Origin: the human T2T-CHM13v2.0 reference genome, Homo sapiens
Length of the DNA: 64,000 bases
Assembly: GCF_009914755.1 (NCBI RefSeq)
Contig: NC_060927.1
Strand: one strand, 5' to 3'
A model generated the notes under the pieces. The model searched no databases. It was not told the origin of the DNA and was given only the letters and a program-made list of their open reading frames with translations. Shown piece after piece: positions 2,671 to 42,003 of the stretch. Both the position numbers and the translations under genes were made by a program. The first letter of the stretch is position 1. Every line of letters starts with the position of its first letter.

Positions 2671-5600
2671 AATGATCGCCATTCTAACTGGTGTGAGATG
2701 ATATCTCATTGTGGTTTTGATTTGCATTTCTTTGATGGCCAATGATGATGAGCATTTTTTCATGTGTCTGTTGGCTGCATAAATGTCTTCTTTTGAGAAG
2801 AGTCTGTTCATGTCCTTTGCCCACTTTTTGATGGGGTTGTTTGTTTTTTTCTTGTAAATTTGTTTGAGTTCTTTGTAGATTCTGGATATTAGCCTTTTGT
2901 CAGATGGGTAGATTGCAAAAATTTTCTCCCATTCTGTAGGTTGCCTGTTCACTCTGATGGTAGTTTCTTTTGCTGTGCAGAAGCTCTTTAGTTTAATTAG
3001 ATCCCATTTGTCAATTTTGGCTTTTGTTGACATTGCTTTTGGTGTTTTAGACATGAAGTCCTTGCCCATGCCTATGTCCTGAATGGTATTGCCTAGGTTT
3101 TCTTCTAGGGTTTTTATGGTTTTAGGTCTAACATTTAAGTCTTTAATCCATCTTGAATTAATTTTTGTATAAGGTGTAAGGAAGGGATCCAGTTTCAGCT
3201 TTCTACCTATGGGTAGCCAGTTTTCTCAGCACCATTTATTAAATAGGGAATCCTTTCCCTATTTCTTGTTTTTGTCAGGTTTGTCAAAGATCAGACGGTT
3301 GTAGATGTGTGGTGTTATTTCTGAGGGCTCTGTTCTGTTCCATTGGTCTATATCTCTGGTTTGGTACCAGTACCATGCTGTTTTGGTTACTGTAGCCTTG
3401 TAGTATAGTTTGAAGTCAGGTAGCGTGATGCCTCCAGCTTTGTTCTTTTGGCTTAGGTTTGTCTTGGCAATGTGGGCTCTTTTTTGTTTCCATATGAACT
3501 TTAAAGTAGTTTTTTCCAATTCTGTGAAGAAAGTCATTGGTAGCTTGATGGGGATGGCATTGAATCTATAAATTACCTTGGGCAGTATGGCCATTTTCAC
3601 GATATTGAATCTTCCTATTCATGAGCATGGAATGTTCTTCCATTTGTTTGTGTCCTCTTTTATTTCGTTGAGCAGTGGTTTGTAGTTCTCCTTGAAGAGG
3701 TCCTTCACATCCCTTGTAAGTTGGATTCCTAGGTATTTTATTCTCTTTGAAGCAATTGTGAATGGGAGTGCACTCATGATTTGGCTCTCTGTTTGTCTGT
3801 TATTGGTGTATAGGAATGCTTGTGATTTTTGCACATTGATTTTGTATCCTGAGACTTTGCTGAAGTTGCTTATCAGCTTAAGGAGATTTGGGCTGAGATG
3901 CTGGGGTTTTCTAAATATACAATCATGTCATCTGCAAATAGGGACAGTTTGACTTCCTCTTTTCCTAATTGAATACCCTTTATTTCTTTCTCCTGCCTGA
4001 TTGCCGTGGCCAGAACTTCCAACACTATGTTGAATAGGAGTGGTATGAGAGGACATCCCTGTGTTGTGCCCGTTTTCAAAGGGAATGCTTCCAGTTTTTG
4101 CCCATTCAGTATGATATTGGCTGTGGGTTTGTCATAAATAGCTCTTATTATTTTGAGATACGTCCCATCAATACCTAGTTTATTGAGAGTTTTTAGCATG
4201 AAGGGCTGTTGAATTTTGTCAAAGGCCTTTTCTGCATCTATTGAGATAATCATGTGGTTTTTGTATTTGGTTCTGTTCATATGATGGATTACATTTATTG
4301 ATTCGCATATGTTGAATCAGCCTTGCATCCCAGGGATGAAGCCAACTTGATCGTGGTGGATAAGCTTTTTGATGTGCTGCTGGATTCGGTTTGCCAGTTT
4401 TTATTGAGGATTTTTGCATCAATGTTCATCAGGGATATTGGTCTAAAATTTTCTATTTTTTTGTTGTGTCTCTGCCAGGCTTTGGTATCAAGATGATGCT
4501 AGCCTCATAAAATGAGTTAGGGAGGATTCCCTCTTTTTCTATTGATTGGAATAGTTTCAGAAGGAATGGTACCAGCTCCTCTTTATACCTCTGGTAGAAT
4601 TCGGCTGTGAATCCGTCTGGTCCTAGACTTTTTTTGGTTGGTAGGCTATTAATTACTGCCTCAATTTCAGAGCCTGTCATTGGTCTATTCAGGGATTCAA
4701 CTTCTTCCTGGTTTAGTCTTGGGAGGGTGTATGTGTCCAGGAATTTATCCATTTCTTCTAGATTTTCTAGTTTATTTGCATAGAGGTGTTTATAGTATTC
4801 TCTGATGGTAGTTTGTATTTCTGTGAGATCGGTGGTGATATCCCCTTTATCATTTTTTATTGCGTCTATTTGATTCTTCTCTCTTTTCTTCTTTAGTAGT
4901 CTTGCTAGTGGTCTATCAGTTTTGTTGATCTTTTCAAAAAACCAGCTCCTGGATTCATTGATTTTTTTGAAGGGCTTTTTGTGTCTCTATCTCCTTCAGT
5001 TCTGCTCTGATCTTAGTTATTTCTTGCCTTCTGCTAGCTTTTCAATGTGTCTGCTCTTGCTTCTCTAGTTCTTTTAATTGTGATGTTAGGGTGTCGATTT
5101 TAGATCTCTCCTGCTTTCTCTTGTGGGCATTTAGTGCTATAAATTTCCCTCTACACACTGCTTTAAATGTGTCCCCGAGATTCTGGTATGTTGTGTCTTT
5201 GTTCTCATTGGTTTCAAAGAACATCTTTATTTCTGCCTTCATTTTGTTAGGTACCCAGTAGTCATTCAGGAGCAGGTTGTTCGGTTTCCATGTAGTTGAG
5301 CGGTTTTGAATGAGGGTCTTAATCCTGAGTTCTAATTTGATTGCACTGTGGTCTGAGAGACAGTTTGTTTTAATTTCTGTTCTTTTACATTTGCTAAGGA
5401 GTGCTTTACTTCCAACTATGTGGTCAATTTTGGAATAAGTGCAATGTGGTGCTGAGATGAATGTATATTCTGTTGATTTGGGGTGGAGAGTTCTATAGAT
5501 GTCTGTTAGGTCCGCTTGGTGCAGAGGTGAGTTCAATTCCTGGATATCCTTGTTAACTTTCTATCTCATTGATCTGTCTCATGTTGACAGTGGGGTGTTA

Positions 5601-6034
5601 AAGTCTCCCATTATTATTGTGTGGGGGTCTAAGTCTCTTTGTAGGTCTCTAAGGATTTGCTTTATAAATCTGGGTGCTCCTGTATTGGGTGCATATATAT
5701 TTAGGATAGTTAACTTCTTGTTGAATTGATCCCTTTACCATTATGTAATGGCCTTCTTTGTCTCTTTTGATCTTTGTTGGCTTAAAGTGTGTTTCATCAG
5801 AGACTAGTATTGCAAACCCTGCTTTTTTTGTTTTCCATTTTCTTGGTAAATCTTCCTCCATCCCTTTATTTTGAGCCTATGTGTGTCTCTGCACATGAGA
5901 TGGGTCTCTTGAATACAGATCACTGATGGGTCTTGACTCTTTATCCAATTTGCCAGTCTGTGTCTTTTAATTGGAGCATTTAGCCCATTTACATTTAAGG
6001 TTAATATTGTTATGTGTGAATCTGATCTTGTCAT
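2210..6034 (-). pseudogene. L1#1 ORF2 (endonuclease/RT), disrupted
   Basis: ORF track fragments MTRSDSHITIL..., ...[11 protein letters not shown]...; multiple stops and frameshifts. Confidence 0.9.
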
Positions 6035-41100: not shown

Positions 41101-42003
41101 TGCTATAAATTTCCCTCTACACACTGCTTTGAATGTGTCCCAGAGATTCTGGTATGTTGTGTCTTTGTTCTCGTTGGTTTCAAAGAACATCTTTATTTCT
41201 GCCTTCATTTCGTTATGTACCCAGTAGTCATTCAGGAGCAGGTTGTTCAGTTTCCATGTAGTTGAGTGGCTTTGAGTGAGATTCTTAATCCTGAGTTCTA
41301 GTTTGATTGCACTGTGGTCTGAGAGACAGTTTGTTATAATTTCTGTTCTTTTACATTTGCTGAGGAGAGCTTTACTTCCAACTATGTGGTCAATTTTGGA
41401 ATAGGTGTGGTGTGGTGCTGAAAAAAATGTATATTCTGTTGATTTGGGGTGGAGAGTTCTGTAGATGTCTATTAGGTCCGCTTGGTGCAGAGCTGAGTTC
41501 AATTCCTGGGTATCCTTGTTGACTTTCTGTCTCGTTGATCTGTCTCATGTTGACAGTGGGGTGTTAAAGTCTCCCATTATTAATATGTGGGAGTCTAAGT
41601 CTCTTTGTAGGTCACTCAGGACTTGCTTTATGAATCTGGGTGCTCCTGTATTGGGTGCATATATATTTAGGATAGTTAGCTCCTCTTGTTGAATTGATCC
41701 CTTTACCATTATGTAATGGCCTTCTTTGTCTCTTTTGATCTTTGTTGGTTTGAAGTCTGTTTTATCAGAGACTAGGATTGCAACCTCTGCCTTTTTTTGT
41801 TTTCCATTTGCTTGGTAGATCTTCCTCCATCCTTTTATTTTGAGCCTATGTGTGTCTCTGCACGTGAGATGGGTTTCCTGAATACAGCACACTGATGGGT
41901 CTTGACTCTTTATCCAACTTGCCAGTCTGTGTCTTTTAATTGGAGCATTTAGTCCATTTACATTTAAAGTTAATATTGTTATGTGTGAATTTGATCCTGT
42001 CAT
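38175..42003 (-). pseudogene. L1#4 ORF2: TGA at 41545-41547 and +1 frameshift at ~40928-40934; C-terminal 847 aa open
   Basis: ORF track 41545..42003, 40921..41502, 38175..40718. Confidence 0.93.

What the first reader, a model, noticed from the sequence alone, without database searches (positions are those of the whole stretch)
5579..41547. The same ORF2 nonsense codon (…TPLST*) in all three large L1PA elements
gatctgtctCatgttgacag occurs at 5571, 31021 and 41537, giving TGA on the minus strand at 5579-5581, 31029-31031 and 41545-41547, where active L1 reads TTA (Leu ~153, endonuclease domain). Because L1 proteins act preferentially in cis, three source elements of different ages are unlikely to have carried this stop. 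It therefore probably arose once and spread locally. Inference: gene conversion from old dead neighbours may have helped inactivate a young full-length L1, a sequence-level route to silencing that depends on neighbourhood.
Basis: partly seen in the sequence, partly recalled or inferred. Interest (0 to 1): 0.8.

Follow-up and report, generated by a model that had tools for sequence, protein, structure and literature searches.

The report
Shared stop codon spread between neighbouring L1s
Three separately inserted L1 retrotransposon relics lying within 36 kb carry the same rare stop codon, most likely because short stretches of DNA were copied between them (gene conversion), a known process of which this is a clear local example.

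Summary
The 20-mer occurs at window 5571, 31021 and 41537 and nowhere else in the window. It puts TGA at ORF2 codon 153, inside the endonuclease domain. Genome-wide the TGA allele is rare: 24 copies against 5877 with TTA. It is also clustered: about 0.035 pairs within 110 kb are expected by chance, and 5 non-duplicated pairs at 3 loci are seen.

The three L1s are independent insertions of different ages.

Elements A and B have clearly exchanged sequence. They share a sharp ~290-bp tract, two k-mers found only in A and B in the whole genome, and a second rare variant 46 bp from the TGA.

For the young full-length element C, the TGA is the only shared private marker. Any tract into or out of C is at most 48 bp, so conversion there is inferred, at about 0.8, not shown. 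Direction is unresolved.

C also has two ORF1 stops and an ORF2 frameshift, so "helped inactivate" is only partly supported. This is ectopic gene conversion between dispersed repeats, a known process and well described for Alu. Interest is moderate to low.

The parts
1971..7385 (-). Element A: 5'-truncated older L1PA copy. Its 3' tail (1971-2020) abuts another L1 3' fragment at 1286-1975.
   Evidence: BLAST extents; landmarks; 80 private singletons; terminal branch 0.040
5579..5581 (-). TGA in element A at the ORF2 codon-153 position
5566..5647 (-). Probable A-B conversion patch round the TGA (alignment columns 2438-2519). A and B differ at one site in 82 bp. The patch holds the rare T>C at window 5626 (column 2459) plus the TGA.
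   Evidence: A-B difference list; column 2459; that variant has 75 copies genome-wide, and the joint haplotype occurs only in A and B
6988..7273 (-). A side of a ~290-bp A-B conversion tract (end of the 5'UTR and start of ORF1). Identity is ~97%, with ~80% on both flanks. A carries B-type diagnostic states here.
   Evidence: two k-mers inside the tract occur only in A and B genome-wide
27411..33069 (-). Element B: L1PA copy of intermediate age that starts at the canonical 5' end. Flanked by a ~17-bp target-site duplication (33070-33086 and 27394-27410, one mismatch).
   Evidence: 67 singletons; terminal branch 0.034
31029..31031 (-). TGA in element B
31016..31097 (-). B side of the A-B patch round the TGA; the rare T>C lies at window 31076
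32434..32721 (-). B side of the ~290-bp A-B conversion tract
37955..43990 (-). Element C: young full-length L1 of about 6.0 kb. Flanked by a 13-bp target-site duplication AAAGTAGGGATGA (43991-44003 and 37945-37957).
   Evidence: 28 singletons; terminal branch 0.012; groups with L016 and L019
41545..41547 (-). TGA in element C, ORF2 codon 153, inside the endonuclease domain
41535..41582 (-). The only stretch round the TGA where C is identical to A and B (columns 2469-2516, 48 bp). This is the upper bound on any conversion tract involving C.
42922..42924 (-). In-frame TAG in ORF1 of C (column 1127). Not shared with A or B.
42694..42696 (-). In-frame TGA in ORF1 of C (column 1355), at a CGA codon. 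Recurrent in 6 of the unlinked copies. Not shared with A or B.
40928..40934 (-). Run of 7 A in ORF2 of C that shifts the frame. The same string is present in A, L021 and L027.

Best explanation
A single T>G change made a TGA at ORF2 codon 153 in one of three neighbouring L1 relics. All three lie on the minus strand, 10.5 to 36 kb apart. Non-allelic (ectopic) gene conversion then copied the change into the other two.

Shown:
- The three are independent insertions of different ages.
- A and B have exchanged several patches. One is a sharply bounded ~290-bp tract in which the older A carries B-type states and B-private variants, so B was the donor there.
- A and B share a second rare variant 46 bp upstream of the TGA, so the TGA moved between them in a patch of about 50-80 bp.

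Inferred:
- The TGA of young element C was also transferred, through a tract or mismatch-repair patch of at most 48 bp.
- An origin in A or B is somewhat more likely than in C, because they had more time to mutate.

The elements are neutral relics, so the stop has no consequence for the host. It is one of four coding lesions in C.
For: Rarity and clustering:
- 24 TGA copies against 5877 TTA copies.
- Among copies with the young-type context, TGA is in 3 of 2129, or 0.14%.
- About 0.035 TGA-TGA pairs within 110 kb are expected if alleles were placed independently.
- Six such pairs are seen. One is a 99.2% inverted duplicate. The other five lie at three loci: the window, chr4 55.6 Mb and X 63.4 Mb, between copies 90-94% identical with no flank homology.

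Independent insertions:
- Homology stops at the L1 ends.
- B and C have their own target-site duplications.
- On a tree of 23 TGA copies the carriers are spread over the whole ladder. A, B and C fall in different parts of it.

A-B exchange:
- They share 12 exclusive variants, the joint top of 253 pairs (mean 1.46).
- In columns 840-1089 A differs from B at 7 sites and from every other copy at 18-39 sites.
- The raw alignment shows ~97% identity over ~290 bp between ~80% flanks.
- Diagnostic sites: A is B-type at columns 868-1047 and at six further sites at 5533-6047, but old-type at 33 sites between 1048 and 5315.
- Two k-mers from the tract occur exactly twice in 3.1 Gb, in A and in B.
- The T>C at column 2459 has 75 copies genome-wide. 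Combined with TGA it occurs only in A and B.

The same pattern elsewhere:
- Each non-duplicated TGA pair shares a further exclusive variant within 70 bp of the stop: A-B at -46, chr4 at +68, X at -61.
- A chr2 pair 15 kb apart shares both the TCA allele and 2459C inside a 119-bp identical run.

Short tracts are possible: a passage in PMC1920257 cites cell-culture L1-L1 conversion tracts as small as 13 bp.
Against: - For C there is no co-transferred marker. C keeps its own clade states at columns 2468 and 2530 and its CpG at 2517.
- C shares 2 exclusive variants with B and 1 with A, which is background (mean 1.46).
- No window of C is unusually close to A or B once regional conservation is allowed for.
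- A simple longest-concordant-run permutation test gave A-B p=0.007 and B-C p=0.0035 unadjusted over 105 pairs. Unlinked pairs scored as low, so nothing survives correction.
- The background is only 20 other TGA-bearing copies. The planned sample of about 93 TTA-bearing copies could not be fetched.
- Some 'exclusive' variants in that small sample are common genome-wide. The column-5384 T k-mer of A and B has 973 copies.
- The chance expectation uses L1 density from chr1 6.9-79.4 Mb as a proxy for the genome.
- No outgroup or population data were available.
Confidence: 0.8

Rival explanations
1. A and B exchanged the TGA by conversion, but C acquired its TGA by an independent T>G mutation. The three-way match is then partly coincidence.
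For: - C has no second marker shared with A or B near the site, and no excess of shared private variants.
- Independent TGA does arise in young copies: L016 and L019 on other chromosomes.
- About 14 variants are shared by A and B, and C could match any one of them. That raises the chance of some match to roughly 0.02-0.04 (my estimate).
Against: - The per-copy frequency of TGA in young-context copies is 3 of 2129, C included.
- C has one private T>G among 1025 T positions.
- Neighbours share this and other rare alleles far more often than chance at several other loci.
Confidence: 0.13
2. Conversion occurred, but in the opposite direction to the reader's proposal. The TGA arose in young element C (or came with it) and was copied into B and then A.
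For: - The tract holds no diagnostic site, so direction is open.
- In the one tract where direction can be read, the younger B was donor to the older A.
- A passage in PMC8230782 reports that most directed Alu conversions ran from younger to older type (40 against 12 loci).
Against: - C has had the least time to mutate: 28 private singletons against 67 and 80.
- Two successive transfers would then have to fit within C's shorter residence.
- A and B share TGA together with 2459C, which C lacks.
Confidence: 0.15
3. The three copies inherited TGA from defective source elements mobilised in trans, that is, a TGA-bearing L1 lineage.
For: Three of the 24 carriers (C, L016, L019) belong to one young clade.
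Against: - Carriers are spread over the whole ladder and do not form a clade.
- The genome-wide number (24 of 5990; 3 of 2129 young) fits ordinary per-site mutation.
- Retrotransposition gives no reason for three carriers to land within 36 kb.
Confidence: 0.01
4. The three copies are products of a local segmental or tandem duplication of one L1 that already carried TGA.
For: Same orientation and close spacing.
Against: - Homology ends at the L1 borders.
- Pairwise identity is 93-94%, like unlinked pairs.
- B and C have different target-site duplications.
- 33 diagnostic sites separate A from B.
Confidence: 0.005
5. Assembly or polishing artefact: reads from one L1 copy imposed its base on the others.
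For: None from these tools. No reads could be examined.
Against: - The copies differ at 5-7% of sites, including sites within 12-40 bp of the stop, so long reads should place uniquely.
- The A-B tracts carry later differences, as expected of old events.
Confidence: 0.02

Closest known systems
Non-allelic gene conversion between neighbouring Alu elements (Aleshin and Zhi 2010, seen only as cited in passages of PMC8230782 and PMC6598467)
   Same: Dispersed retroelement copies from independent insertions share non-diagnostic (private) mutations when they lie close together. Mosaic patterns of subfamily-diagnostic sites are seen. The sex chromosomes are noted as hotspots, and two of my extra pairs are on X.
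   Different: - Here the repeats are 6-kb L1s, not 300-bp Alus.
- Distances are 10-36 kb in the window and about 100 kb at two other loci, against the <10 kb range quoted for Alu.
- The marker is a nonsense codon in a coding element.
Documented L1-L1 gene conversion. Burton et al. 1991 and Myers et al. 2002 were seen only in the reference list of PMC5640379. Tremblay, Jasin and Chartrand 2000 was seen only as cited in PMC1920257.
   Same: L1 copies serve as donors and recipients of conversion. Tracts as short as 13 bp are quoted, which would fit inside the 48-bp limit for C.
   Different: Those works were not read here. Whether they report dependence on neighbourhood, or transfer of an inactivating lesion into a young full-length copy, is unknown to me.
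Old inactive Alus overwriting younger ones by conversion ('life after death', PMC8230782, passage)
   Different: - That paper scores whole-element type changes against ape orthologues.
- Here it is a single site with no polarity.
- In the one readable tract the younger copy was the donor.
Concerted evolution of tandem or duplicated genes
   Same: Repeated non-reciprocal exchange keeps or makes paralogues alike. The A-B pair shows several separate patches.
   Different: Overall A-B identity (93.9%) is no higher than for unlinked pairs. Exchange is patchy and rare, not homogenising.

Membership tests
Non-allelic (ectopic) gene conversion between dispersed repeats | Partners are paralogous copies at separate loci that arose by independent insertion | tested here: met
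   Homology is confined to the L1 bodies. B and C have their own target-site duplications. No duplication could be identified for the truncated A.
Non-allelic (ectopic) gene conversion between dispersed repeats | A bounded tract of raised identity, or a mosaic of subfamily-diagnostic states, in the recipient | tested here: met
   Met for A-B: ~290 bp at ~97% between ~80% flanks; 7 against 18-39 differences; diagnostic-site mosaic. Not met for C, where no mosaic patch was found.
Non-allelic (ectopic) gene conversion between dispersed repeats | Private variants found only in the partners and lying together in the tract | tested here: met
   Met for A-B: two k-mers occur only in A and B in the whole assembly, and 2459C plus TGA occurs only in A and B. 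For C the TGA is the sole such variant.
Non-allelic (ectopic) gene conversion between dispersed repeats | Non-reciprocal change of state at an orthologous locus, seen against outgroup species or other haplotypes | not testable with these tools
   No ape genomes, human pangenome or reads are on hand.
Non-allelic (ectopic) gene conversion between dispersed repeats | Sharing depends on physical proximity | tested here: met
   0.035 pairs within 110 kb expected, 5 non-duplicated pairs seen. Across four rare variants, 7 loci have same-variant pairs within 130 kb (1 a duplicate, 1 ambiguous), against 2 independent cross-variant pairs.
Primate LINE-1 (L1PA) element | ORF2 with an apurinic-type endonuclease domain and a reverse-transcriptase domain | tested here: met
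   In element C: Exo_endo_phos E 5.6e-14 and RVT_1 E 2.1e-47.
Primate LINE-1 (L1PA) element | Poly-A tail and target-site duplication | tested here: met
   C has a 13-bp duplication and an A tail. B has a ~17-bp duplication.
Primate LINE-1 (L1PA) element | Named subfamily (L1PA2, L1PA5 and so on) by comparison with curated consensus sequences | not testable with these tools
   No repeat library is on hand. Only relative age comes from the tree and singleton counts.
Segmental duplication | Homology extends into non-repeat flanks, and the copies are each other's closest relatives | tested here: not met
   By contrast the X 118.72/118.76 Mb pair does meet it (99.2%, inverted).
Defective L1 lineage propagated in trans | Carriers of the lesion form one clade | tested here: not met
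   The 23 carriers examined are spread over the whole ladder.

The most novel reading that the evidence does not exclude
Neighbouring L1 copies throughout the human genome exchange short patches over 10-100 kb often enough that a tenth or so of an old copy's private variants are shared with a neighbour. If so, dead L1s would routinely seed stop codons and frameshifts into newly inserted full-length copies. Divergence-based ages and subfamily calls of L1s would then depend on their neighbourhood.

My data hint at this. Five clear non-duplicated loci turned up from only four rare variants. A and B share 12 exclusive variants, plus the TGA, against 80 and 67 private ones. The data cannot give a rate.
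Probability: 0.25. Interest if true: 0.6.

Novelty: new member of a known kind. Interest (0 to 1): 0.35.

Why it matters
- It is a clean, checkable case of gene conversion between L1 relics. It moved a chain-terminating codon between copies of different ages, probably into a young full-length copy.
- Identity of a rare variant in nearby repeats is not evidence of common descent.
- Conversion can blur L1 subfamily calls: element A is B-type over a ~290-bp 5' patch and at six 3'-end diagnostic sites, and old-type at 33 sites between.
- If neighbour exchange is common for L1 as reported for Alu, it adds a small route of decay for new insertions that depends on their surroundings. It would also bias molecular dating of repeats.
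- For this locus itself nothing functional follows. All three copies are dead, and C carries three other coding lesions.

Tried and rejected
The 20 other TGA-bearing copies therefore served as background. This limits how well 'private' can be judged.
- Column 5384, where A, B and C share T against 18 others, looked like a second three-way match. The A/B k-mer has 973 copies genome-wide, so it was dropped as evidence.
- The 206-bp identical B-C run (columns 3948-4153) is not evidence. Unlinked L022 shows runs of 171-181 bp in the same region.
- The longest-concordant-run permutation test did not separate linked from unlinked pairs.
- The 12 exclusive variants shared by unlinked L009 and L010 all lie at columns 5779-6064. 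They reflect an older 3'UTR type, not exchange.
- The +1 A frameshift string shared by A and C also occurs in L021 and L027. It is a slippage-prone A run, so it was not counted.
- C-clade states in the 3' end of A are interleaved with sites where A lacks them. This was left unexplained.
- Aleshin and Zhi 2010 and Tremblay et al. 2000 are not held.
- Four literature searches found no held paper that describes neighbourhood-dependent sharing of private variants between L1s. Subscription journals are largely missing from that library.
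Full report
**Observation**

The 20-mer of the finding occurs at window 5571, 31021 and 41537 on the + strand. With up to 2 mismatches allowed it occurs nowhere else in the window, and 100 shuffles gave 0 matches. A copy carrying the common allele would have been found as a one-mismatch hit. So all 3 of 3 L1 copies in the window that keep this segment carry the variant.

Read on the minus strand, all three give ...CCACTGTCAACATGAGACAGATC. In the full-length copy the TGA is the 153rd codon from the ORF2 ATG. 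The 152 residues before it match Pfam Exo_endo_phos positions 1-157 of 225 (E 5.6e-14). The long downstream frame holds RVT_1 (E 2.1e-47).

**The three elements**

All three lie on the minus strand.
- A spans 1971-7385. It is 5'-truncated, and its tail abuts an older L1 3' fragment at 1286-1975.
- B spans 27411-33069. It starts at the canonical L1 5' end and has a ~17-bp target-site duplication with one mismatch.
- C spans 37955-43990. It is about 6.0 kb long, with an A tail and a 13-bp target-site duplication.

BLAST identities are A-B 93.3%, A-C 93.1% and B-C 94.4%. Homology stops at the L1 borders, so there is no segmental duplication.

I fetched 20 of the 21 other TGA-bearing copies of the assembly as 10-kb stretches. 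I aligned them, together with A and B, to C. The maximum-likelihood tree is the usual L1PA ladder.
- A sits in the older part.
- B is sister to L023.
- C sits in the youngest clade with L016 and L019.
- Terminal branches are 0.040 for A, 0.034 for B and 0.012 for C.
- Private singletons number 80, 67 and 28 of about 5250 columns.

I could not give curated subfamily names because no repeat library is on hand.

**Rarity and clustering**

Across the whole assembly (3.1 Gb):
- the TGA 20-mer occurs 24 times;
- the TTA version occurs 5877 times;
- the three non-TTA alleles together occur 113 times.

TGA is therefore 24 of 5990 copies, or 0.40%. Among copies with the young-type flank it is 3 of 2129, namely C, L016 and L019. 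These numbers fit ordinary per-site decay: private T>G changes number 1, 3 and 4 per 1025 T positions in C, B and A. The carriers are scattered over the whole tree, so they are not one lineage.

I took L1 spacing from the first 100 TTA copies listed on chr1 and used it as a proxy for the genome. Independent placement then predicts about 0.035 TGA-TGA pairs within 110 kb. Six such pairs are seen.
- Three are in the window.
- One is on chr4 (55.61 and 55.70 Mb; the copies are 90.2% identical).
- One is on X (63.38 and 63.48 Mb; about 92.4% identical).
- One is on X (118.72 and 118.76 Mb). It is a 99.2% identical inverted duplicate and does not count.

Other rare alleles behave alike.
- The TCA allele has a pair 15 kb apart on chr2 (93.3% identical).
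- The TCA allele also has a pair 19 kb apart on chr17 (96.8%, inverted, ambiguous).
- The TAA allele has 9 copies among the 100 places listed and a pair 126 kb apart on chr5 (93.3%).

Across the four rare variants I listed, same-variant pairs within 130 kb occur at 7 loci, of which 1 is a duplicate and 1 is ambiguous. Independent cross-variant pairs number 2. The allele is rare and clustered.

**A and B have exchanged sequence**

In the 23-copy alignment A and B share 12 variants carried by no other copy. That is the joint top of 253 pairs, where the mean is 1.46 and the 95th centile is 4. The other pair with 12, L009-L010, is explained by an older 3'UTR type confined to columns 5779-6064.

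The A-B variants sit inside their longest identical runs: 855-1009, 4948-5135, 5473-5571 and 5574-5678.

I defined diagnostic sites as columns where the older and younger copies differ. At these sites:
- A is young-type (B-type) at seven sites at 868-1182, six of them at 868-1047, and at six sites at 5533-6047;
- A is old-type at 33 sites from 1048 to 5315.

In columns 840-1089 A differs from B at 7 sites and from every other copy at 18-39 sites.

The raw A-B alignment shows about 290 bp (A 6988-7273, B 32434-32721) at about 97% identity. Both flanks are at about 80%. Two k-mers from this tract occur exactly twice in the assembly, once in A and once in B.

This is a conversion tract. Because A carries B-type diagnostic states there, B was the donor.

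**The TGA moved between A and B**

Around the TGA, A and B differ at one site between columns 2438 and 2519. They share a T>C at column 2459, 46 bp upstream. That variant has 75 copies genome-wide. Together with TGA it occurs only in A and B, against about 0.3 joint copies expected from the two frequencies (my arithmetic).

The other non-duplicated TGA pairs also share an exclusive variant close to the stop: chr4 at +68 and X at -61. The chr2 pair shares both TCA and 2459C inside a 119-bp identical run, the longest gap between differences in its 1.2 kb. Transfer of the TGA between A and B in a patch of roughly 50-80 bp is therefore well supported.

**Element C**

Here the evidence is thinner.
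- C is identical to A and B only over columns 2469-2516 (48 bp).
- C keeps its own clade states at 2468 and 2530 and its CpG at 2517.
- C shares 2 exclusive variants with B and 1 with A, which is background.
- No window of C is unusually close to A or B. The 206-bp B-C run lies in a region where unlinked L022 gives 171-181-bp runs.

The case for transfer rests on odds.
- An independent T>G at this base in a young copy has a frequency of about 0.1%.
- Allowing for the roughly 14 variants that A and B share, any one of which C might have matched, the chance of some match is about 0.02-0.04 (my estimate).
- Neighbours demonstrably share rare alleles at this very site at several loci.
- A cited cell-culture study found L1-L1 conversion tracts as short as 13 bp (passage in PMC1920257).

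I put transfer at about 0.8 and coincidence at about 0.13.

Direction cannot be read, because the tract contains no diagnostic site. A or B is the likelier origin because they had longer to mutate, and because they share the TGA on a haplotype with 2459C that C lacks.

**Did the stop inactivate C?**

C has four coding lesions:
- a TAG in ORF1 at window 42922-42924, shared only with unlinked L013;
- a TGA in ORF1 at window 42694-42696, at a CGA codon and recurrent in 6 of the unlinked copies;
- the ORF2 TGA;
- a run of 7 A at window 40928-40934 that shifts the ORF2 frame, the same string also being present in A, L021 and L027.

Any one of these would disable the element, and their order is unknown.

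**Comparison with what is known**

- Non-allelic gene conversion between dispersed retroelements is established.
- For Alu, sharing of non-diagnostic mutations between neighbours within about 10 kb, with hotspots on the sex chromosomes, is attributed to Aleshin and Zhi 2010. I saw only passages that cite it, in PMC8230782 and PMC6598467.
- PMC8230782 also reports 40 loci where a younger Alu type replaced an older one and 12 loci of the reverse. It voices the idea that old inactive copies can overwrite young ones (passage).
- For L1, I saw Burton et al. 1991 and Myers et al. 2002 only in a reference list, and Tremblay et al. 2000 only as cited.
- Four searches of the held library found no paper that describes neighbourhood-dependent sharing of private variants between L1s. 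Much of the older literature is not held.

This locus is thus a new example of a known process. The distances (10-36 kb here, about 100 kb at two other loci) and the nonsense marker are its only unusual points.

**Limits**

- Some variants that look exclusive in it are common genome-wide.
- A simple run-length permutation test did not discriminate between linked and unlinked pairs.
- No outgroup, population or read data could be used.

**Verdict**

Local spread by gene conversion is shown for A and B, and is probable for C. Polarity and a role in silencing are unproven. Novelty is low and interest is moderate to low.

Noticed in passing
window 1286-1975: A second L1 3'-end fragment lies directly beside the tail of element A. 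It is about 90% identical to the 3' ends of A, B and C. A seems to have inserted next to, or into, an older L1.
   Followed up: no
G000 C2:158877882-158877949 and C2:158892781-158892848 (L030, L031): Two L1 copies 15 kb apart are 93.3% identical over 1.2 kb. They share two rare variants: TCA at the same codon, and the column-2459 T>C. Both lie inside a 119-bp identical run. This looks like another short conversion tract at the same spot.
   Followed up: partly
G000 C23:118721842 and C23:118763806 (L028, L029): This TGA pair on X lies in opposite orientation and is 99.2% identical over 1220 bp. It is a recent inverted duplication, not conversion between independent insertions.
   Followed up: partly
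window about 2000-2800 (element A, alignment columns 5273-6037): A carries states otherwise seen only in the youngest clade (C, L016, L019) at columns 5273, 5816 and 6011. With one extra carrier each it also does so at 5796, 5917 and 6037. These sites are interleaved with clade sites that A lacks. The cause could be conversion from a C-like donor or subfamily structure that my sample misses. Unexplained.
   Followed up: partly
window 40928-40934 (C) and the matching A run in element A: The frameshifting run of 7 A followed by TC is the same string in C and A. It also occurs in unlinked L021 and L027, so it may be recurrent slippage.
   Followed up: partly
L025 (G000 C23:62.51 Mb) and L027 (C23:63.48 Mb): These two TGA copies lie 0.97 Mb apart on X. 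They share 3 exclusive variants and a long concordant run at columns 4790-4934 (unadjusted p 0.0025). This may be long-range exchange on X or chance.
   Followed up: no
G000 C6:54512320 and C6:55149293: Two of the 9 listed copies of the rare TAA allele lie 637 kb apart on chr6. They were not fetched.
   Followed up: no
L013 (G000 C4:55698394-55708393): This locus holds two L1 copies side by side. One is the 5'-truncated TGA carrier. The other is a younger copy 95.6% identical to C over 3.5 kb.
   Followed up: no
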